DNA of 63,839 nt, filler included, from Myxococcota bacterium (GTDB lineage: Bacteria; Myxococcota; Myxococcia; Myxococcales; Myxococcaceae), in assembly GCA_049322255.1 (NCBI GenBank). It is 9 parts of 9 records of this genome, joined end to end, with 100 filler letters (N's around TTAATTAATTAA, not from the genome) between each part and the next. Parts side by side here need not be neighbours in the genome. Positions count along the whole stretch, not along the records: positions 7,524 to 14,868 come from JBMORE010000153.1; 8 more parts are not named here. One strand, written 5' to 3'. The notes beneath the pieces are model-generated. The model was not told the origin of the DNA and made no database searches. It saw only the letters and a list, made by a program, of their open reading frames with translations. Position numbers and translations under genes: made by a program. Shown here piece after piece: positions 7,424 through 22,907 of this stretch; position 1 is the first letter of the stretch; each line of letters begins with the position of its first letter.

Positions 7424-7523
7424 NNNNNNNNNNNNNNNNNNNNNNNNNNNNNNNNNNNNNNNNNNNNTTAATTAATTAANNNNNNNNNNNNNNNNNNNNN
7501 NNNNNNNNNNNNNNNNNNNNNNN
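7424..7523. other. Artificial contig linker (N-TTAATTAATTAA-N); also at 14869-14968, 22170-22269, 29437-29536, 36609-36708, 43726-43825, 50785-50884, 57760-57859. Pure-N scaffold gap at 52657-52756
   Basis: Identical 100-nt spacer with a six-frame stop; flanking contigs are size-sorted. Confidence 0.97.
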
Positions 7524-7525
7524 GC

Positions 7526-7954
7526 TTCGGCTCCCGCCCACAGCCGCAACGTGCGTTCGTCGAGGTGCCTGCTCATGAGCTTGAACCGCTTCCGGACTTC
7601 TTTCTCGGTGGCCATCGCCACCTTCGATCACGTTCGCGAGAGCTTGTCGACCCCCTCGTCGCTTACGTAATTCGATCTCAGGCCCTTACTGTGCCTTTGC
7701 CTGAGGAAGTGATTGGAATGCCGGTTGCCGAATATCATTCGCACCCGGAGATTTGCCTGACACCACGCTGCATGGGGGCGGATCCCAACAACTTCGCGCC
7801 GCCTGATCTCAGGCGCGCAGCAGGGCATGCTCGCGATTCCTATCTGTTCACGCCGTCCGGACGAATCCGCGTGTTTGATGTATATGATGATTGGAGGCCC
7901 GGCGACCTCGTGGGCGACTTCGAACGGGCAGGAAGGAAGGGGTGGTTAAAGTGA
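7526..7954 (+). CDS. Putative polymorphic toxin C-terminal domain (DUF4329/JAB-like), 5' truncated
   Basis: AEYHSHP...FAPPD...SYLFTPSGRI motif; lower-GC tract; RHS remnant nearby; frame open to contig start. Confidence 0.55.
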   Translation, partial: FGSRPQPQRAFVEVPAHELEPLPDFFLGGHRHLRSRSRELVDPLVAYVIRSQALTVPLPEEVIGMPVAEYHSHPEICLTPRCMGADPNNFAPPDLRRAAGHARDSYLFTPSGRIRVFDVYDDWRPGDLVGDFERAGRKGWLK

Positions 7955-8361
7955 CTGCGCCAACGGCCAGGAGGAAGGTGTGTCTTGGGCTGCTACTGGC
8001 AGCAACCGCTTGGTTTGCTGCATCGTGTCGCGCCCAGACGGGCGCTCCAAGTTCAACAGCGAAGACGCCCTTAGCAGCGGGTCTCAACAACGGCGTCGAA
8101 TGGGAGGAAGAGGTGAGTCTACCGCGTGGAGTTACCCTTCAGGCCCAGCACGTAGAGGCGTTAGGCCTGACTTGGACTCGATACAGCAGCACGCTCGATG
8201 AAGACGAGTTGCGCCGAGAGTACGAGGCCACCATCTACGAGGAGGCGGGCAACTGGGTTGTAATCTGGATGCCTGCAGCTCCGAACATCATTGGCGGTGG
8301 GATGGTCTTCCGCGTCGATCGTAAAGGAAAGAGAATCCTCCAAGAAACGGGAGGCCAGTGA
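7951..8361 (+). CDS. Putative immunity lipoprotein (NTF2-fold immunity-like)
   Basis: GTGA overlap with the toxin stop; lipobox-like FAASC; C-terminal WVVIW...GGG..F.VDRK.K.IL pattern. Confidence 0.55.
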   Translation: MTAPTARRKVCLGLLLAATAWFAASCRAQTGAPSSTAKTPLAAGLNNGVEWEEEVSLPRGVTLQAQHVEALGLTWTRYSSTLDEDELRREYEATIYEEAGNWVVIWMPAAPNIIGGGMVFRVDRKGKRILQETGGQ

Positions 8362-8473
8362 ACGCCTCCTCCGATTCGTCGCCCCTGCAAAGGGTGGATG
8401 AACTCTATCGCGATTTCAGGATGAGATGGCGCCATGCGGTTAAGGCTACGCAACGACGATGGGGCGATCCGCC

Positions 8474-8845
8474 ATGACCGGAACGATTCGCGTATTCCTC
8501 CTGGGTCTTGCTTGCATTGGATGCGCCTCGGGCTCGCAGTCACCAGTAGCTTGGGTGGACACTAAACCAGCGCTAGAAATCATTGTTCTTTCGCCCAGGA
8601 CCGGCGACGACTTTGCCGCAGATCCAATCGTGGTTCATTTCAGAGCAGCAAGCCCATGCCCCATCAAGGAAATCAGCTACTCGTTGGGTCAGTGGTCATC
8701 GGTGTTGCGGGCGCCACCGTGGCGAGAAGAAATATCGCGCGATCAACTCGGAGCCATCGATGAAAGCGACGTTGTCTTCTTCTTCAAGGCCGAAGACGAA
8801 TGCGGGCACTTCAGGGTGCACGCCCATGGTCGCACGGTGCTGTAG
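8474..8845 (+). CDS. Hypothetical lipoprotein, copy 1
   Basis: Signal peptide ending LACIGC; near-identical paralog at 9261-9632. Confidence 0.65.
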   Translation: MTGTIRVFLLGLACIGCASGSQSPVAWVDTKPALEIIVLSPRTGDDFAADPIVVHFRAASPCPIKEISYSLGQWSSVLRAPPWREEISRDQLGAIDESDVVFFFKAEDECGHFRVHAHGRTVL

Positions 8846-9012
8846 AGACAGAGCGTGATTTTCGAACCAACTGCCGGCGGCGGTCACCGTGGGCGCGTTC
8901 TTGCTGGGTTTCGCTGCCACCCTGGCGCTGGGCAGTTTGACTACACAGGGAATTGGCCAACGAGCAGCGGTGGTCCATGGGTCGTTCCAGAGATTCAATT
9001 CTGGGAGGAACC

Positions 9013-9264
9013 ATGAAGCGGATATCGCGCATCATTTGGATTGTCGCAGGGATGTGGGTCGGTCTTCACATGTATTGGTTCGTCGCCAGTATTTTGCCCG
9101 AGCGCTGGCGCGAGTGGTTAGCCGATGACGGAATTGATCTGGGCCAGGACCGCATCCTCCCGTTTGCAGCCTTCGCATGGCTTTTATTCGGTTTTCTAGG
9201 CTCGTTGGCATTCCTGAGACTAAGAGAAATATGGCTCGCGCGGCAGAGGCGAATAGAGCCATGA
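9013..9264 (+). CDS. Small two-TM membrane protein (possible immunity protein)
   Basis: GGAGG SD before ATG 9013; two hydrophobic segments; stop overlaps the next ATG. Confidence 0.6.
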   Translation: MKRISRIIWIVAGMWVGLHMYWFVASILPERWREWLADDGIDLGQDRILPFAAFAWLLFGFLGSLAFLRLREIWLARQRRIEP

Positions 9265-9632
9265 CCGGAATGATTCGCGCATTCCTCCTGGGTCTTGCTT
9301 GCATCGGATGCGCCTCGGGCTCGCAGTCACCAGTAGCTTGGGTGGACACCAAACCAGCGCTGGAAATCATTGTTCTTTCTCCCACGACGGATAACGACTT
9401 TGCGGCAAACCCAATCGTGGTCCATTTTCGACCGGTGAGCTCCTGCGCCATCAAGGAAATCAGGTACTCGTTGGGTCAGTGGTCATCGGTGTTGCGAGCG
9501 CCACCGTGGCGAGAAGAAATATCGCGCGACTGGGTCGGCACCATGGATGAAGACACCGTTGCTCTCTTCTTCAATGCCGAAGACGAATGCGGACATTTCA
9601 CGGTGCAAACCAAGATTCATACAACCATGTAG
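9261..9632 (+). CDS. Hypothetical lipoprotein, copy 2
   Basis: Same length (372 nt) and highly similar to 8474-8845. Confidence 0.65.
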   Translation: MTGMIRAFLLGLACIGCASGSQSPVAWVDTKPALEIIVLSPTTDNDFAANPIVVHFRPVSSCAIKEIRYSLGQWSSVLRAPPWREEISRDWVGTMDEDTVALFFNAEDECGHFTVQTKIHTTM

Positions 9633-9646
9633 CGGGCGTAGCATGA

Positions 9647-10243
9647 TTGCTGGCCTACGAGTACTTCGCCGATGGAGCCGTACGAAGCAGGCATGACGTC
9701 TTGCTCAACTCCTCGGAGGACTTCGAGTACGACTTCGCCGACCGGCTCACCAAGTGGACGCATGCACAAGACTGCCAGAGGTCTGTCGTAGAATACGAGT
9801 ACGACGATGGAGGAAACATGCGGGAGCGGCGCGTGCTGGAAGGGCCTCTTGCGGCGCTCTCCTACTCGTACGGAGAAGGAGGAGCCGGCCCCGGCGTGCT
9901 GACATCGGTGACGACTTCAGCCGGAGGCGCCACCCAGTTTGGGTATGACGCCAATGGCAACCAGACAAGCGCCGGCGCGAGGGTGGTCGACGCATACACG
10001 CCGTTCAACCTGCCGCGCACCATGCGAGTGCAGGGCGTTTCCACCGGCTTCGAGTACGACGCATTTGGAACGCGTGTGAGGAAGTCCTCGGGCACCGACG
10101 AGACGGTGTACGTCGAAGGCCTGTACGAAAAGCGCATGGCATCTCTTGTGAGGACGCACGTCTACAGCGCGTCCAGGCCAACAACGGCTTTGAGCAGCGC
10201 ACGCTTTCCCCCGGGGGCCAGTTGGGCAGATGACTTCCGCTGA
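9647..10243 (+). pseudogene. Orphan RHS/YD-repeat fragment
   Basis: FEYDFADRL, YEYDDGGN, FGYDANGN, YTPFNLP, FEYDAFGTRVRK; no RHS core end; apparent frameshift after THVYS. Confidence 0.85.
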
Positions 10244-10562
10244 CTCTCAGGCACAGGACTCCATTTCTAAAAACGCGCTGCCGTCGGCCCAAGTTCTATG
10301 ACCAGCAAGGCGAATGCGCTCGCCGTCAGTATCGGCGATGGCACCGAAAACCAGCAACTTCGCGCGTAACCCTTTCGGCACACCCGTGCGCGTGGCTGGG
10401 GGACAACGGGCGAGGCTGCGGGTGGGACGGTGATCCGGAGATTTCTTTGCGCAGGCTTGAAGGCGTTATTCGCCACAGGCGGGCGTGCCGAAGGGGCGGA
10501 GTTGGACCTTTTCCTCCCGAGCCTTGCTGGGCCATTGAGGGAGATTCTAGTCTCAGCGGCGC

Positions 10563-11993
10563 TTGAACGCCCGTGACCGGCTCGACCGGATCATCCTCCC
10601 CCTCGCCCTGACCATCGGAACCGCCGCGCGCGTCGTCTTCGCCCTCGTCGACGACGGCATCCACTGGCCGGATGAAATCTATCAATCGCTCGAGCCGGCC
10701 CACCGCGCCGTCTTCGGTTACGGCTGGCAGGCGTGGGAGTTTCTCGAGGGCGCGCGCCACTGGAGCTTTCCCGGCCTGGTGGCGCTGGTGCTGAAAACGG
10801 CGCTCCTCTTCGGCTTGCGTTCTCCGGCCGAGTACCTTCCCTTCCTCGAGCTCTTCTTCTGCACGGTGGGGACGGCCACCATCGCCTCGACCTACCTGCT
10901 CTCCCGCAGCGTCGGGGCCAGCCGCCTCTCCTCTGCGTTGGGCGCCGCCAGCTTCGCCTTCATGGGGTTGGCGGTGTACTTCGCCCCGCGGGCGATGGGA
11001 GAGACGCTCTCCGCGTTGCCTGTGACGCTCGCCTTCGCCCTCTTGTTGCTTGACGCGCCTCGTCGCTGGCACCTGGTGGCCGCCGGGGTGCTGCTTTCTT
11101 TGGCGGTGGGCTTTCGGCTGCAAAACGGGCTTTTGTGCTTGGGGGCGCTGGGCGTGCTTCTGGCGCGCCGCCGCCGCACCGACGCCCTGTGGCTTTTGGG
11201 AGTGCTCGGCCTGGGGGCGCTCGCCTACGGGCTGGTCGATTGGCTCACCTGGGGCAAACCCTTCCACTCCGCCCTGGTGTACCTGCGCTTCAACGTGCTG
11301 GAGGGGCGCTCCTCCGATTTCGGCCGCTCGCCTCCGTGGCACTACCTACGGGTGCTGGTCAGCGCCGAGTGGCTCACCGTGGTGCCGCTGGTGGGGCTGG
11401 CGGTGCTCGGTTTTCGCCGCCACCGCGCCCTGGCGGTGCTGTCGCTTGTCTACCTCCTGGCGCACTCCCTCATCCCGCACAAGGAGCTGCGCTTCCTCTT
11501 TCCCCTCTTTCCTTTGCTGTGCGCCCAAGCGGCGGTCGGGCTCGATGTGCTGTCTGCCTCCCGGCCGCGATGGGCACCGGCGGTCGCCGTGGGCTTGAGC
11601 CTGGCGAGCCTTCTGTCCTGTGCCACCCTCCCCGCCCTCACCTTCCGCCGCCTGGGCATCAAAAATCCCGGGCCGGGCAACCGGAGCGCGCTCGATTACG
11701 CCGGCGCGGAGAACCGGCTCTTGCTTTTCGCCAGCGCCCTTCCCGACGTCTGCGGGCTGAAAATCTCCAGCATCGAGAACTGGCGTACCGGCGGTTACAC
11801 CTACTTCCACCAAGAGGTGCCGCTCTACGGACGCGAGCGGCCCAACGACGGCGAGGGCCACTACAACTACCTCATCGCCCCCAAAGGCTCGGTGGCGGGC
11901 ACCGAAGTCGCCGCTGACGGAGAGGTGGCGCTGGTGCGTCTGTCGCCTCCTCCCTGCGCTCCGGACCCCGGCTATGACTGGCATCTGGAATGA
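10563..11993 (+). CDS. GT-C glycosyltransferase, GT22 (ALG9/PIG-B)-like mannosyltransferase
   Basis: HWPDEIYQSLEPAH and PHKELRFLFP motifs; many TM helices. Confidence 0.85.
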   Translation: MNARDRLDRIILPLALTIGTAARVVFALVDDGIHWPDEIYQSLEPAHRAVFGYGWQAWEFLEGARHWSFPGLVALVLKTALLFGLRSPAEYLPFLELFFCTVGTATIASTYLLSRSVGASRLSSALGAASFAFMGLAVYFAPRAMGETLSALPVTLAFALLLLDAPRRWHLVAAGVLLSLAVGFRLQNGLLCLGALGVLLARRRRTDALWLLGVLGLGALAYGLVDWLTWGKPFHSALVYLRFNVLEGRSSDFGRSPPWHYLRVLVSAEWLTVVPLVGLAVLGFRRHRALAVLSLVYLLAHSLIPHKELRFLFPLFPLLCAQAAVGLDVLSASRPRWAPAVAVGLSLASLLSCATLPALTFRRLGIKNPGPGNRSALDYAGAENRLLLFASALPDVCGLKISSIENWRTGGYTYFHQEVPLYGRERPNDGEGHYNYLIAPKGSVAGTEVAADGEVALVRLSPPPCAPDPGYDWHLE

Positions 11994-13446
11994 CGCGCGC
12001 GCCCGGTGGGCGGCGGCAGCGGTCGCGCTCTTTGCCTTCCTCTGGCGCGTCTACCCTTTCTGGCGCCACGGCGCCTTCGGCGTCGCCACCGACTACGACG
12101 AGGGCGTCTACTTCTCCGCCGCCTCCTTGCTCCTCCAAGGAGAGCTTCCCTACCGCGATTTCACCTTCGTCCACCCGCCGGGGCTCATCGCCTTCCTCTC
12201 TCTCACCAGCGCGTGGGCGACCCATCCCTTCGGCCCGGAGGTAGGCTTTACCCTCGCGCGCTGGGTGGCGGCGCTGGTGGCAGCGGTCAACGTGCTCCTG
12301 GTGTTCCGCCTCACCGAGCGCTGGACGGGGGCGGCGGGAGGGCTGGTCGCCGCGGCGCTCTACGCCACCTACCCCGAGCTGGTCATCGTGGAACGCGGTC
12401 CTTTCCTCGAGCCGGTGCTCAACCTCGCCTGTCTGTCGATGGCCGCGGCGCTGCAAAAAGCCGAGTCGCTGGAGAGCGCCGGCCACCAGCGCTGGCTCCT
12501 CGTCGCTGGCGTCTTGGGCGGGCTGGCGGTGACGGTGAAGGTGTGGGCGGTGTTCTGGGTGCTGGGTGGAGCCTTCGCGGTTCTCGTCCGTTCTCCGCGC
12601 GGGGTGGTGCGCTTCCTTCTCGGCGTGGGCTTGGGCGCAGCGGTGGTGGTGCTGCCCTTCGTCCTCGCCGCCCCTGCCCGCTTCTTCACCGAGACGTTGC
12701 TCTTTCACCTCTGGCGGCCACCCGACGGTACCCCCGAGCGGCTGCCGCGGCTGGGACAAATCATCGCCAAGCGCCACCTGGCCTCTCCGCTGCTCGCCCT
12801 GGCCTGCTTGGGCTTTTTCGCGCTCCGCCGCGGTCCCAAGGTGAACGTTCTTTTCGCCACCGCGTACGTGCTGCTCTTGGCCGCCTTCCTCGCCTCGGCC
12901 GCCTACTGGAATCAGTACAACGCCCACCTCATCGCCGCCGAGGCGGTGCTCGCCGGTGGATTCGCCGGCTGGATTCTCATGCACCCGCGGCTGCGGCTTT
13001 TGCTCGCCTTGCCAGCGGTGGCCAGCCTCTCTTTTTCGGTACGCGCCAGCGCCCGACTGCACGGAGCGCCGCCATCGAAAAAGCTGACGGAAGCCGTACG
13101 CCGCCACGTGCCCCAAGACGCCTGCCTTTTTGCCTTCGAGCCGGCCTGGGGCCTCGCTGCCGGGAGACTCCCTTCGCGCGCACCGGAAGGACCGCTGGTG
13201 GTGGACAGCTACGCGCGCATGCTCCTCTCCGCCGTGGAGGGGGGCGAGCGCTTCTCACATGCCCAGGCGGCCTTCGAAAGTCTCCAGAGCCAGCGCGAGG
13301 TGAAGGCGCTTCTACACGCGTGCCGCTTCGCCGCCGTCGGCGACCGCGGGCGCTGGCAACTGTCCCCTGAATCGCGCCGCTGGTTGGAGACCTCGTTTCA
13401 GGAGGTGGAGCCGGGCAGCGACGTGTGGCGCCGCCTCACGCCATGA
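11974..13446 (+). CDS. GT-C glycosyltransferase (ArnT/PMT-like)
   Basis: YDEGVY and LPYRDF..HPPG first-loop motifs; multi-TM. Confidence 0.8.
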   Translation: MTGIWNDARARWAAAAVALFAFLWRVYPFWRHGAFGVATDYDEGVYFSAASLLLQGELPYRDFTFVHPPGLIAFLSLTSAWATHPFGPEVGFTLARWVAALVAAVNVLLVFRLTERWTGAAGGLVAAALYATYPELVIVERGPFLEPVLNLACLSMAAALQKAESLESAGHQRWLLVAGVLGGLAVTVKVWAVFWVLGGAFAVLVRSPRGVVRFLLGVGLGAAVVVLPFVLAAPARFFTETLLFHLWRPPDGTPERLPRLGQIIAKRHLASPLLALACLGFFALRRGPKVNVLFATAYVLLLAAFLASAAYWNQYNAHLIAAEAVLAGGFAGWILMHPRLRLLLALPAVASLSFSVRASARLHGAPPSKKLTEAVRRHVPQDACLFAFEPAWGLAAGRLPSRAPEGPLVVDSYARMLLSAVEGGERFSHAQAAFESLQSQREVKALLHACRFAAVGDRGRWQLSPESRRWLETSFQEVEPGSDVWRRLTP

Positions 13447-13627
13447 AGTCGTGCCCGCGCACCGTCTTGCGGCCGTTGGCCTTGGCGCGCTTGGAGGCTT
13501 GCTCCAACAACCAGTACACGTAGCCGTTGAGCGCCTCGAAGGCGTCCCCGGCGGTGTTGCAGCCCGCCTTCTTGAGCACCGCCTTGGCCTTGCTGGCAAT
13601 CACCAACGGCTCCTGATTCTTCGCCAT
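13436..13627 (-). CDS. Bacterial histone-fold protein, 63 aa
   Basis: MAKNQEPLVIASKAKAVLKKAGCNTAGDAFEALNGYVYWLLEQASKRAKANGRKTVRGHDFMA; RKTVxxxD L2/alpha3 signature; AAAGGGA SD-like sequence upstream; forms the tail of track ORF 13436..14074. Confidence 0.9.
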   Translation of the reverse strand: MAKNQEPLVIASKAKAVLKKAGCNTAGDAFEALNGYVYWLLEQASKRAKANGRKTVRGHDFMA

Positions 13628-13723
13628 CGTCATTCCCTTTCTTGGGGGGGTGAAACCGCGGGCGGACTCTACCTCGCCCGGCGGTTTCGGAGGGGCGGCT
13701 TTTCTGCTAACCGCCAGCGCCCG

Positions 13724-14503
13724 ATGTCCTCCTTCTCCACCGCCGGCCTGGGCAAGGTCCTCTTCCGCTTCCGAAGCTTCACCCCGGTGCCCGTGCTCGC
13801 CCTCCTCGGGCTTCTCCTCTGGCGCTCCCGAGGCCAGGCGGGCCCGGGAGGCGACTTTGTCGACGCGGGCTTGAACGGCCTGGGCCTCTGGGTCGCCCTC
13901 GCCGGGCAAGCCTTGCGCTTCTACACCTTGGGCCAGGTGCCCGAAGGCACCAGCGGCCAGGGCTCTCAGCTGGAGGCAGTGACCCTCAACACCCGCGGCC
14001 CCTACGCCTACGTCCGTAACCCGCTCTACTTGGGAAATTTGGGCATCATCCTCGGCCTGCTCCTCATCGCCCACGACGTGTGGGTGTACGCCCTGGGGCT
14101 CTCGTTCTTCTTCGGGGAGTACTTCTTCATCATCCGGGCCGAGGAGGATTTCCTCCGCGCCCAGTTCGGAGCGAAGTACGAGGAGTTTCTGAAGAAGGTT
14201 CCCCGCTGGGTGCCGCGCCTTTCACCGGCCTACGAAGGCGAGCTGCGGGCCGGCTTCGACCTCGCCCGCGCCTTGAAGAAGGAGCACAACCCCTTCGCTG
14301 CCTGGGGCAGCGGCGCCCTCCTCCTCCTCGGCTGGGAGCTCTACGCCCGCCAGAACCTCACCTCTGGGCGGCTCACCGGCCTCGTCTGCCTCGAGGCGGC
14401 GGTGCTCGTTTCCTTCGCGCTCATCAAGGCCTACAAGCACGGGTGGGTGGGGGTGCCTTCGCGGGGGTCGCCCAATCGTCAACCTGGAGGGGTTGACGAA
14501 TAG
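13724..14503 (+). CDS. Isoprenylcysteine carboxyl methyltransferase/PEMT-family membrane methyltransferase
   Basis: GPYAYVRNPLYLG, EEDFL..QFG..YEEF...VPRWVP motifs. Confidence 0.88.
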   Translation: MSSFSTAGLGKVLFRFRSFTPVPVLALLGLLLWRSRGQAGPGGDFVDAGLNGLGLWVALAGQALRFYTLGQVPEGTSGQGSQLEAVTLNTRGPYAYVRNPLYLGNLGIILGLLLIAHDVWVYALGLSFFFGEYFFIIRAEEDFLRAQFGAKYEEFLKKVPRWVPRLSPAYEGELRAGFDLARALKKEHNPFAAWGSGALLLLGWELYARQNLTSGRLTGLVCLEAAVLVSFALIKAYKHGWVGVPSRGSPNRQPGGVDE

Positions 14504-14570
14504 GTTGACGATTACCGAATCTCCCTCTGAAGCGGGTTGACGATTCGGTTGACGCAGGGGTTGACGATTA
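14474..14570. repeat. GGTTGACG(ATT) repeat array with 12-bp period
   Basis: Direct copies at 14491, 14503, 14535, 14547 and 14559, plus an inverted AATCGTCAACC at 14474. Confidence 0.8.
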
Positions 14571-15086
14571 GCCCAACCTCACAAACAGACCCCAGGGGGT
14601 GCGCTTCGGTGGTCGCCGTTCCTAGCTTGACGGAATGCAACCAAGCGCCTTCGAGCACGACCGCACCCACATCACCGAGGAGCCGGAGCCGCCCGGGTGC
14701 CACCACGACCCGCGGCACCAGGACGTGGATTGGCTGGGAAGCGCCCATCAAGGCGGCGGGGGGGTGCCTGAAGAGTATGAGTGGACCACCAACCCCCGCC
14801 ACGACCGGCTGCTCGAGCACGTGGGCAACTGACGGCGGCGAAGCAAAGATGATAGGTGCGGCCGCATGNNNNNNNNNNNNNNNNNNNNNNNNNNNNNNNN
14901 NNNNNNNNNNNNTTAATTAATTAANNNNNNNNNNNNNNNNNNNNNNNNNNNNNNNNNNNNNNNNNNNNTCCGGGACAGCAGTCTGCCGAGGCTTGGTCAT
15001 GACCCACAGCCAAACCGAAGTGCGTGTCCCCCCACAACTTCAGCGTTCGGTATTGCTAACGAGATCGATCACTTATCGTGCGCTCG

Positions 15087-22169: not shown

Positions 22170-22907
22170 NNNNNNNNNNNNNNNNNNNNNNNNNNNNNNN
22201 NNNNNNNNNNNNNTTAATTAATTAANNNNNNNNNNNNNNNNNNNNNNNNNNNNNNNNNNNNNNNNNNNNCCGCTCAGGGAAGCGAGCCCGTTACCGCGGC
22301 ATCCGGAAGAACCTCTTCGACCAACGACGACATGCCGCCCTCGTCAACCTTCGGGCCCTCGCCTCACTCGACCTAACCGGGTCAGCTCTCTAGCGTTGGT
22401 GCCGGTGGGTTACCCTTCGCAGAAGCTTCACAAGGGCCAAGGCGCCTGCGGCGGATGGGCTATGTTGAAGTCGTTGGTGAAGGCGCCGTTCGAGGAGCTC
22501 CAATAGGTTTGTCCAGCCGATCTCGTCCGTGAGCACCAGCCGGTGCTTCTCGTCGAACGGAATCGACGGTCGCTTTCGAATAGGGACGAGCGCGTAATGC
22601 GAAGTTGGGTCTGCCGGCCGGGGCTTCTCTTTTGCTAGCACTTGCTCTAAAGTAACAATCAAAGCTAAATATTTGCAACTCTCCTTGTATTATATGCAAG
22701 GATGCCGCGAACGCCGCCTCTGGGGTCGCCCTTGGAGAGAGACGGCGGGTGGTTGAGCAAGTGCTTCAAGAGCGAGGACTGTATTCGCGCGGCTGCGCGC
22801 TGGACCCGCCGGGAAGTCAAAGCTACGTCGAGAGGGTCGTCCATTTGATGCGATGCCGACGCCCGCTGGCGTCACGCCGGCGACCCTCAGCGAGGGTCAC
22901 CTTCGCT

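What the first reader, a model, noticed from the sequence alone, without database searches (positions are those of the whole stretch)
13436..13627. Hidden bacterial histone in a myxobacterium-like genome
Seen: a basic 63-aa ORF with its own SD, buried at the end of a probably spurious 212-aa track ORF. It is a standalone gene, divergent from a methyltransferase and overlapping the convergent GT-C stop by 11 nt. It parses as alpha1 (ASKAKAVLKKAG), L1 (CNTAG), alpha2 (DAFEAL...KRAKANG), L2 with RKTV, and a stub alpha3 (RGHDF) keeping the R...D clamp. Known: alpha2 about one turn shorter than archaeal HMf plus a truncated alpha3 is the pattern of Bdellovibrio Bd0055/HBb and Leptospira HLp; from memory it is closest to the HLp face-to-face type. 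Inference: this lineage may use a histone as a chromatin protein, which has not to my knowledge been studied in myxobacteria. The Cys in L1 and the YVYW patch could be lineage-specific.
Basis: partly seen in the sequence, partly recalled or inferred. Interest (0 to 1): 0.85.

Follow-up and report, generated by a model that had tools for sequence, protein, structure and literature searches.

The report
Face-to-face-type bacterial histone gene
This 63-residue gene from an uncultured myxobacterium encodes a small bacterial histone of the already described tetramer-forming "face-to-face" type, so it is a sound catch but a new member of a known kind.

Summary
Window 13436..13627 (minus strand) is a real 63-aa basic gene (pI 9.8). 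It starts at the second ATG and lies at the end of a spurious 212-aa ORF. It overlaps a convergent GT-C gene by 11 nt and diverges from an ICMT/PEMT methyltransferase gene.

It is a histone:
- By sequence, the family profile hits HLp of Leptospira perolatii (PDB 9QT0) at E 3.6e-18, HBb/Bd0055 at 3e-8 and archaeal HTkC at 1e-5.
- The AF2 model (pLDDT 92) superposes on HLp at 0.5 A.
- The HLp tetramer residues (R47, N51, R53), the R53-D60 clamp and 8 of 9 HLp DNA contacts are kept.
- A four-copy prediction gives a handshake dimer plus the HLp-type dimer-dimer interface.

The gene is under strong purifying selection. It is single-copy, with codon usage like EF-Tu and rpoB, and the genome also has three HU/IHF genes.

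The family is not new. Schwab 2024 and Hu 2025 already list Myxococcota among bacterial face-to-face histone carriers. IMG names its cluster mates "histone H3/H4". This scan has reported similar genes on other DNA. No myxobacterial histone has been studied experimentally in the papers searched.

Verdict: new member of a known kind, modest interest.

The parts
13436..13627 (-). Coding sequence of the 63-aa alpha3-truncated (face-to-face type) histone, stop codon included
   Evidence: ORF and translation. PDB hits HLp, HBb and HTkC. AF2 model and Foldseek. Purifying selection. The exact protein is in the public collection.
13634..13639 (-). Partial Shine-Dalgarno (AAGGGA), 6 nt upstream of ATG 13627
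   Evidence: Read from the sequence. Relatives carry GGAG-like boxes at the same distance from their M-A-K start (by eye).
13666..13671 (-). -10-like hexamer TAGAGT, 38 nt upstream of the start codon; putative promoter element (inferred)
   Evidence: TA[CG]A[AG][TG] lies 25-65 nt upstream in 15 of 23 close loci, against a mean of 0.52 in 500 shuffles. The motif was chosen after seeing these sequences and the loci are kin. The consensus sigma-70 scan found 0 sites.
13628..13723 (.). 96-bp divergent intergenic spacer between the histone gene and the methyltransferase gene
13628..14074 (-). Upstream extension of the open frame (the 212-aa ORF minus the gene); not coding
   Evidence: No Pfam family for the 212-aa ORF. 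It is not in the protein collection. It lies antisense to the methyltransferase gene. Open-frame lengths around the gene range from 64 to 551 aa in relatives.
11974..13446 (+). Convergent neighbour: GT-C glycosyltransferase (PMT_2). Context only, not linked to the histone
   Evidence: Pfam PMT_2 at E 1.4e-9. Found next to the histone in none of the other 91 loci held.
13724..14503 (+). Divergent neighbour: ICMT/PEMT-family membrane methyltransferase. Context only, not linked to the histone
   Evidence: Pfam PEMT 3.3e-10 and ICMT 1.1e-6. NCBIfam LmtA_Leptospira 82 bits, below its 325-bit cut-off. Absent from all other loci.

Best explanation
The gene encodes a face-to-face (FtF) type alpha3-truncated bacterial histone. 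Two chains form a handshake dimer through alpha2, with the Y36-W39 patch and Cys23 in the core. Two dimers join through the C-terminal end of alpha2, loop 2 and the stub alpha3 (R47, N51, R53, H59, F61) into a closed tetramer like that of Leptospira HLp. The basic rim (S12-K13, K15, K19, T25, G27, R53-K54-T55) binds the DNA backbone without sequence preference. By analogy with HLp it would wrap or bend roughly 60 bp and so compact the nucleoid.

Shown here: the fold, the family, residue conservation, selection and the predicted assembly. Inferred: DNA binding, wrapping, abundance and role in the cell. The protein probably acts as an abundant nucleoid-associated protein beside HU/IHF, not in place of it.
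For: Sequence. phmmer against the PDB gives HLp 9QT0 at E 7e-11, HBb 8CMP/8FVX at ~3e-5 and HTkC 9F2C at 2e-3. The family profile A2 gives HLp 3.6e-18, HBb 3.3e-8 and HTkC 1e-5.

Fold. The AF2 model has pLDDT 92 and helices 11-20, 27-50 and 59-62. Foldseek ranks HLp first (TMq 0.87, TMt 0.98, rmsd 0.5 A, 46% identity), then HBb, HTkC and nucleosomal histones.

Residues. I mapped the alignment onto the residues named in PMC12701072. The offset of 2 between chain and paper numbering is my inference. Tetramer residues R49, N53 and R55 correspond to R47, N51 and R53. The clamp R55-D62 corresponds to R53-D60. F63 corresponds to F61. Each of these is kept in 86 of 86 close relatives. Of the 9 HLp DNA contacts, 8 are identical; T56 becomes K54.

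Assembly. Four copies gave ipSAE 0.92 in all three runs, with a best control of 0.00. This mark was reached by 20 of 30 proteins solved as pairs and by 1 of 23 solved as single chains. The runs agree in at least 95% of contacts and the partner's pLDDT is at least 90. The contacts are a handshake dimer plus a second interface at residues 43, 46-47, 50-51, 57, 59-60 and 62-63.

Real gene. pN < pS in 3238 of 3240 pairs. dN/dS to relatives at 90% aa identity or more is 0.03-0.10.

Expression proxy. CAI is 0.769 against a tuf/rplKAJL/rpoBC reference. That exceeds 99.9% of 3092 crude gene calls and 95.5% of random 63-codon windows, and is similar to EF-Tu (0.745) and two HU genes (0.745, 0.723).

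Charge. pI is 9.84.
Against: No experiment and no expression data exist for this protein.

The tetramer prediction may reflect the model's memory of the solved HLp or HTkC tetramers. Only one copy was scored, and the calibration used two copies, not four.

The loop-2 motif is R-K-T. Schwab 2024 describes this motif for 'bacterial dimers' and nucleosomal histones and says the FtF profile lacks it. Elusimicrobiota, which carry 24 of the 80 nearest loci, are listed in that paper under bacterial dimers, not FtF. The protein could therefore sit between the two categories.

Two HLp tetramer contacts differ: S52 becomes A50 and T61 becomes H59.

Pfam histone models are below threshold.

The genome has three HU/IHF genes, so the histone need not be the main chromatin protein. 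Leptospira, by contrast, is reported to lack HU.

CAI on 63 codons is noisy: 4.5% of random windows reach the same value.
Confidence: 0.75

Rival explanations
1. It is an HBb/Bd0055-like 'bacterial dimer' histone. It stops at the dimer and bends DNA locally, as HU or IHF do, instead of forming a wrapping tetramer.
For: The R-K-T loop-2 motif is shared with HBb and with Schwab's bacterial-dimer logo. HBb is the second-best hit by sequence and by fold. Elusimicrobiota relatives at 80-88% identity belong to a phylum listed under bacterial dimers. The tetramer prediction could come from memory of solved structures.
Against: Bacterial dimers are defined as lacking the R and N that make the dimer-dimer contact. 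Here R47 and N51 are kept in 86 of 86 relatives, while HBb has Ser and Asp at those positions (alignment). The family profile is ten orders of magnitude closer to HLp than to HBb. The predicted second interface uses exactly these residues.
Confidence: 0.15
2. It is a histone-fold protein without a general chromatin role, such as a specific regulator or a protein-protein adaptor, as proposed for DUF1931 proteins and for TAF-like folds.
For: Schwab 2024 warns that not all prokaryotic histone-fold proteins need be genome organisers. HU/IHF genes are present in the genome. The family is patchy: 15 of 171 genomes in the same family.
Against: The DNA-contact residues of HLp are kept (8 of 9), and S12, K13, K19, R53, K54 and T55 are each invariant in 86 of 86 relatives. 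pI is 9.84. Codon usage resembles that of highly expressed genes. No gene neighbour is conserved that could suggest a dedicated partner.
Confidence: 0.08
3. It is a chance ORF or the tail of the 212-aa ORF, and not a gene of its own.
For: The genome is GC-rich, so long open frames are common. The ORF track showed a 212-aa frame.
Against: There are 597 relatives of 63-107 aa. pN < pS holds in 3238 of 3240 pairs. Relatives start at the same M-A-K. The exact 63-aa protein is in the collection while the 212-aa form is not. The 212-aa ORF has no family hit.
Confidence: 0.01

Closest known systems
HLp, the face-to-face histone of Leptospira perolatii (PDB 9QT0-9QT2; Hu et al. 2025, PMC12701072)
   Same: Same size and the same fold, with a 4-residue alpha3. 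46% identity and rmsd 0.5 A. The tetramer residues R, N and R, the RD clamp and 8 of 9 DNA contacts are kept. A tetramer with the same interface is predicted.
   Different: Loop 2 reads R-K-T, not R-T-T. S52 becomes Ala and T61 becomes His. The L1 position is Cys where HLp has Phe. The N-terminal tail is very short (about 7 residues). The host genome also has three HU/IHF genes, whereas Leptospira is reported to lack HU. The SMC/MAP/DUF350 neighbourhood reported for hlp is absent here. No experimental data exist.
HBb / Bd0055, the 'bacterial dimer' histone of Bdellovibrio bacteriovorus (PDB 8CMP, 8FVX, 9EZZ)
   Same: An alpha3-truncated singlet with the R-K-T-x4-D loop-2 motif and a basic alpha1. 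TM 0.82.
   Different: Only 36-37% identity. HBb has Ser and Asp where this protein has R47 and N51. The profile E-value is 3e-8 against 4e-18 for HLp. HBb is a dimer that bends DNA (abstract and passages).
HTkC, the archaeal face-to-face histone of Thermococcus kodakarensis (PDB 9F2C)
   Same: The same alpha3-truncated fold (TM 0.82, rmsd 1.0 A). It belongs to the tetramer class to which HLp is compared.
   Different: 32-33% identity. It is archaeal, and the profile E-value is only 1e-5.
Nucleosomal archaeal histones HMfA/HMfB (PDB 1B67, 1A7W)
   Same: Histone fold, RD clamp and R-K-T-type loop 2.
   Different: The match is weak (profile E 0.55; Foldseek TM 0.56-0.62, rmsd 2.7-2.9 A). Those proteins have a full-length alpha3 and a longer alpha2 and form hypernucleosomes through a four-helix bundle (PMC12701072 passages).

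Membership tests
alpha3-truncated prokaryotic histones (Schwab 2024) | Histone fold: alpha1-L1-alpha2-L2-alpha3, forming a handshake dimer | tested here: met
   AF2 model with pLDDT 92. Foldseek's top 50 hits are nearly all histones or NF-Y. The predicted dimer has alpha2-alpha2 crossing (37:37) and L1-L2 pairing (23:56).
alpha3-truncated prokaryotic histones (Schwab 2024) | alpha3 of only 3-4 residues; alpha2 4-5 residues shorter than in nucleosomal histones | tested here: met
   The model's alpha3 is residues 59-62 (4 residues) and alpha2 is 27-50 (24 residues). The criterion is quoted. I did not measure the alpha2 length of HMf here. The chain is 63 aa against 68-69 for HMfA/B.
Face-to-face (FtF) histones | Conserved Arg and Asn at the end of alpha2 that make the dimer-dimer contact (HLp R49, N53; R48/N52 in Schwab's logo), plus R55 | tested here: met
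   R47, N51 and R53 align to these residues. Each is kept in 86 of 86 close relatives. R47 is invariant and N51 and R53 are nearly invariant in the 48-row alignment A1.
Face-to-face (FtF) histones | Confident predicted or solved closed tetramer (two dimers joined on both sides) | tested here: inconclusive
   ipSAE was 0.92 in three runs against a best control of 0.00 (mark reached by 20 of 30 solved pairs and 1 of 23 single chains). The second interface matches HLp's residues. However, only one copy is scored, closure of the ring was not read out, and the solved HLp tetramer may be remembered by the model.
Face-to-face (FtF) histones | The FtF profile lacks a conserved Lys/Arg after the loop-2 Arg (no R-K-T) | tested here: not met
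   R53-K54-T55 is present in 86 of 86 relatives. Schwab 2024 gives this as a tendency of the profile, not as a definition.
Face-to-face (FtF) histones | Sequence-independent DNA binding and wrapping of ~60 bp | not testable with these tools
   This needs recombinant protein. Only residue conservation (8 of 9 HLp contacts) could be checked.
Bacterial dimer histones (HBb type) | Lack of the FtF Arg/Asn pair; no confident multimer above the dimer | tested here: not met
   The Arg/Asn pair is present and a tetramer is predicted.
Pfam CBFD_NFYB_HMF (PF00808) / DUF1931 (PF09123) | Score at or above Pfam's gathering threshold | tested here: not met
   12.7 bits against 21.4, and 13.6 bits against 21.8. 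NCBIfam archaea_histone scores 13.7 against 50. The family is too diverged for these models. The PDB name 'DUF1931 domain-containing protein' for HLp is the depositors' label.

The most novel reading that the evidence does not exclude
The clade to which this gene belongs may be a distinct hybrid subfamily. Its marks are G-C-N-T in loop 1, Y-W in alpha2 and R-K-T in loop 2. It joins the FtF tetramer interface to the nucleosomal/HBb-type R-K-T DNA contact. It is kept at 75-90% identity across Myxococcota, Elusimicrobiota and Bdellovibrionota, through transfer between phyla or through extreme constraint. On this reading it serves as a highly expressed principal chromatin protein in those uncultured Myxococcaceae that carry it. 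The well-studied genera seem to lack it.
Probability: 0.25. Interest if true: 0.5.

Novelty: new member of a known kind. Interest (0 to 1): 0.3.

Why it matters
Bacterial histones were characterised only in 2023-2025 (HBb, HLp), and almost all carriers are uncultured. This gene adds a well-supported myxobacterial example with residue-level predictions that can be tested on recombinant protein. It also shows that, within Myxococcaceae, the histone is confined to a minority of mostly uncultured genera (15 of 171 genomes sampled). It does not change the picture: the phylum and the class were already catalogued. The related tandem doublets, and the zinc-finger proteins that contain a doublet, seen in passing may be the more original lead.

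Tried and rejected
Expression. The look-up of sequencing runs listed no RNA holder. The only holder is a DNA run that may be the source sample. Read laying was therefore not used, and expression remains untested.

Synteny. tblastn with the seven neighbouring ORFs of the contig found them in none of the other 91 loci held. I rejected a functional link with the glycosyltransferases and the methyltransferase.

Promoter. The consensus sigma-70 and terminator scan found nothing in 13300..13900.

Schwab 2024 supplements. Two short family motifs and 'Myxococc' were not found in the readable files. One PDF has no text and one is too large. I could not check how that paper classified this subfamily.

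Horizontal transfer. A quick tree of 81 rows and 58 columns shows phylum labels clustered but interleaved. Myxococcota need 8 changes, of which starred branches force 3. Most forks are unresolved and MAG bins can be mixed, so this does not prove transfer. Low pS to some Elusimicrobiota genes (0.28-0.30) is uninformative because both sides have extreme GC3.

Other copies. The own genome has no second copy; the next matches are at E > 1.

Earlier scan notes. The sequence look-up found nothing. The word look-up found ten similar reports on other genomes, of which eight were shown.

Errors corrected. A first Pfam call failed on wrong frame coordinates and was repeated.
Full report
**What is there.** On the minus strand, window 13436..13627 encodes 63 residues. 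The protein is basic: 8 Lys and 3 Arg against 5 acidic residues, pI 9.84. That extension has no Pfam match, is not in the public protein collection and runs antisense to the neighbouring methyltransferase gene.

There are two in-frame ATGs, at 13633 and 13627. The second is the start. It is preceded by AAGGGA at 13639..13634 with a 6-nt spacer, and relatives begin with M-A-K at this point.

The convergent GT-C (PMT_2) gene ends at 13446, so the two genes overlap by 11 nt. The divergent ICMT/PEMT methyltransferase most likely starts at 13724.

The window is not one piece of DNA. It is a chain of ~7.3-kb contigs joined by N runs, and the gene's contig is window 7524..14868 (G000:C153). Context is therefore limited to 7.3 kb.

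**Is it a gene?** Yes.
- A word-indexed search found 597 relatives. The best 120 are 63-107 aa long and 79-97% identical.
- An exhaustive search of 50%-identity representatives found 346 clusters at E <= 1e-3 and 49 at E <= 1e-10.
- I compared the core 50 codons of 86 close loci (81 distinct DNA sequences; the 3 distant ones of 89 were left out). Non-synonymous divergence was below synonymous divergence in 3238 of 3240 pairs, with median pS 0.47 and pN 0.15.
- dN/dS between the window gene and relatives at 90% protein identity or more is 0.03-0.10.
- The exact 63-aa sequence is already in the public collection (sources NCBI and Logan, contig of 7345 bases). Five of its ten cluster mates are named "histone H3/H4" by IMG. 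The gene is hidden only in a naive ORF track, not from gene callers.

**What is it?**
- Sequence. phmmer against all PDB chains gives HLp of Leptospira perolatii (9QT0) at E 7e-11, HBb/Bd0055 of Bdellovibrio (8CMP, 8FVX) at ~3e-5, archaeal HTkC (9F2C) at 2e-3 and the Methanopyrus double histone (1F1E) at 0.056. A profile of 15 close relatives sharpens this to 3.6e-18, 3.3e-8, 1e-5 and 1e-3.
- Family models. Pfam and NCBIfam histone models are only sub-threshold.
- Fold. AlphaFold2 with a 48-row alignment gives pLDDT 92 and helices 11-20, 27-50 and 59-62. Foldseek against the PDB ranks HLp first (TM 0.87/0.98, rmsd 0.5 A, 46% identity), followed by HBb, HTkC and then nucleosomal histones.
- This is the alpha3-truncated architecture defined by Schwab et al. 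2024: alpha3 of 3-4 residues and a shortened alpha2 (passages read).

**Which subtype?** Hu et al. 2025 name the HLp residues that build the tetramer (R49, S52, N53 against R55, T61, F63), the RD clamp (R55-D62) and the DNA contacts (A13, S14, K15, K17, K21, T27, G29, T56, T57).

I used the alignment and inferred a numbering offset of 2 between the PDB chain and the paper. With that mapping:
- Tetramer and clamp residues become R47, A50, N51, R53, H59, D60 and F61.
- DNA contacts become A11, S12, K13, K15, K19, T25, G27, K54 and T55.
- The Arg/Asn/Arg tetramer triad, the clamp and 8 of 9 DNA contacts are identical.
- In 86 close relatives, R47, N51, R53, K54, T55, D60 and F61 are each kept 86 times.
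- HBb has Ser and Asp at the R47 and N51 positions. This fits Schwab's statement that "bacterial dimers" lack this pair.

A four-copy prediction scored ipSAE 0.92 in all three runs, with a best control of 0.00. This mark was reached by 20 of 30 proteins solved as pairs and by 1 of 23 solved as single chains. The runs agree in at least 95% of contacts and the partner's pLDDT is at least 90. The scored copy makes a full handshake dimer with one copy. It touches a third copy through residues 43, 46-47, 50-51, 57, 59-60 and 62-63, which is the HLp-type dimer-dimer surface.

Caveats: the HLp and HTkC tetramers are solved, so the pass may be from memory. Only one copy is scored, and the calibration used two copies.

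One feature points the other way. Loop 2 reads R-K-T. Schwab et al. ascribe this motif to bacterial dimers and nucleosomal histones, and say the FtF profile lacks it. Elusimicrobiota, rich in close relatives here, are listed in that paper under bacterial dimers. I could not read the paper's sequence tables. I file the protein as FtF-type with a nucleosome-like loop 2 and keep the dimer-only reading as the main rival.

Cys23 is kept in 82 of 86 relatives and Trp39 in 82 of 86, across several phyla. Tyr38 is kept in 71 of 86, and Tyr36 varies. In the predicted complex, residues 23 and 35-42 lie in the dimer interface. The Cys position is Phe in HLp and Met in HBb. These are core residues of the subfamily, not lineage-specific additions.

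**Distribution.**
- The genome is 4.85 Mb in 196 contigs and 99.6% complete. It has one copy of the gene and three HU/IHF-family genes.
- A pattern scan of one genome per species found 152 relatives. The best 80 are all MAGs. By the submitters' titles, 41 are Myxococcota (Myxococcales, Myxococcaceae, Archangium, Kofleriaceae), 24 Elusimicrobiota, 8 Bdellovibrionota, 2 Pseudomonadota, 1 Nitrospirota, 1 Planctomycetota, 1 Acidobacteriota and 2 unplaced.
- The window protein sits in a branch of 25 rows, 23 of them Myxococcota (SH-aLRT 87, not starred).
- An HMM of the broader alignment hit 106 of 401 genomes sampled from the phylum (63 of 154 genera). In the window's own family it hit only 15 of 171. 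The heavily sampled genera scored 0 of 21, 0 of 32, 0 of 12, 0 of 12 and 0 of 10.
- A single-protein search of 40 relatives gave 5 of 24 in the same family.
- No gene neighbour is conserved: 0 of the other 91 loci.

**Expression signals (indirect).**
- CAI against a reference of tuf, rplK, rplA, rplJ, rplL, rpoB and rpoC is 0.769. That is above 99.9% of 3092 crude gene calls and above 95.5% of random 63-codon windows.
- For comparison: EF-Tu 0.745, rpoB 0.775, two HU genes 0.745 and 0.723, and the neighbouring genes 0.57-0.63. The histone's GC3 is 0.95 against a median of 0.85.
- A -10-like hexamer (TAGAGT, 13671..13666) lies 38 nt before the start. The pattern TA[CG]A[AG][TG] occurs 25-65 nt upstream in 15 of 23 close loci, against 0.52 expected from shuffles. 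I chose this pattern after seeing those sequences, and the loci are related.
- The consensus sigma-70 scan found nothing.

**Mechanism.** Most likely, handshake dimers pair face to face into a closed tetramer whose basic rim binds the DNA backbone without sequence preference. As shown for HLp (~60 bp; abstract and passages of PMC12701072), the tetramer would wrap or bend DNA and so compact the nucleoid, here alongside HU/IHF. The fold, family, conserved contacts and predicted assembly are shown. DNA binding, wrapping and abundance are inferred.

**Novelty.**
- Schwab et al. 2024 state that bacterial FtF histones are found predominantly in Spirochaetota, Planctomycetota, Bdellovibrionota and Myxococcota. 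Hu et al. 2025 repeat this and note that most are from uncultured organisms.
- Full-text searches for 'face-to-face histone' with 'Myxococcota' found only those authors' paper and its preprint. A search combining 'bacterial histone', 'histone fold', 'myxobacteria' and 'Myxococcus' showed no experimental study of a myxobacterial histone among the 15 top-ranked of 788 papers.
- This scan has already reported similar genes from other Myxococcota MAGs and reached the same verdict.
- The finding is a new member of a known kind.

**Seen in passing.**
- 43 of the best 150 representatives are tandem doublets of this family. One of them, P0122, has halves 61% and 48% identical to the window protein. 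It folds at pLDDT 93 into two alpha3-type histone folds.
- In other Myxococcota families, two adjacent matches lie in single ORFs of ~250 aa. These ORFs have an N-terminal Cys-rich zinc-finger-like domain and a Pro/Ser/Ala linker.
- The passages I read of a 2026 review of double histone folds list only DUF1931-type bacterial examples.

Noticed in passing
proteins P0122-P0266; not in the window: 43 of the best 150 representative relatives are tandem doublets (about 118-207 aa) with two copies of this alpha3-type histone fold. Both halves keep the R...N...R-K-T...D residues. P0122 has halves 61% and 48% identical to the window protein, and folds at pLDDT 93.1 / pTM 0.85 into two histone folds. 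In the passages read, the 2026 double-histone-fold review (PMC13088155) lists only DUF1931-type bacterial doublets.
   Followed up: partly
L093 508..1272 (-), L094 121..876 (+); also G119, G065, G105, G158: In other Myxococcota families, single ORFs of ~250 aa combine three parts: an N-terminal Cys/His-rich zinc-finger-like domain (weak zf-FCS and Prok-RING hits), a Pro/Ser/Ala-rich linker and a histone doublet. This resembles Schwab's ZZ histones, but with two folds.
   Followed up: partly
window 10563..14503: The histone lies among envelope-modification genes: two GT-C glycosyltransferases (Glyco_transf_22 at E 9e-38; PMT_2 at E 1e-9) and an ICMT/PEMT methyltransferase. The methyltransferase has sub-cut-off similarity to Leptospira LmtA, the lipid A 1-phosphate methyltransferase (82 bits against a 325-bit cut-off). 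None of these genes is linked to the histone in other genomes.
   Followed up: partly
window 9647..10243 (+): A 198-aa ORF with an RHS repeat (E 3e-9) lies on the same short contig. Its function and extent were not examined.
   Followed up: no
whole window (N runs at 7424-7523, 14869-14968, 22170-22269 and so on): The window is a concatenation of ~7.3-kb contigs of a 196-contig MAG separated by N spacers. Apparent long-range context across those points is not real.
   Followed up: yes
L030, L035-L038, L041-L045, L053-L055 and other Elusimicrobiota loci: Elusimicrobiota MAGs carry histones 75-88% identical to this myxobacterial one, and phylum labels are interleaved in the tree (Myxococcota need 8 changes, of which 3 are forced by starred branches). 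This is compatible with transfer between phyla, with extreme constraint or with mis-binning. It was not resolved.
   Followed up: partly
G000:C63:14785-15057, C2:33440-33709, C103:69748-70011: The same genome encodes three HU/IHF-family proteins, two of them with codon usage as biased as the histone's (CAI 0.745 and 0.723). The histone therefore coexists with classical nucleoid proteins.
   Followed up: partly
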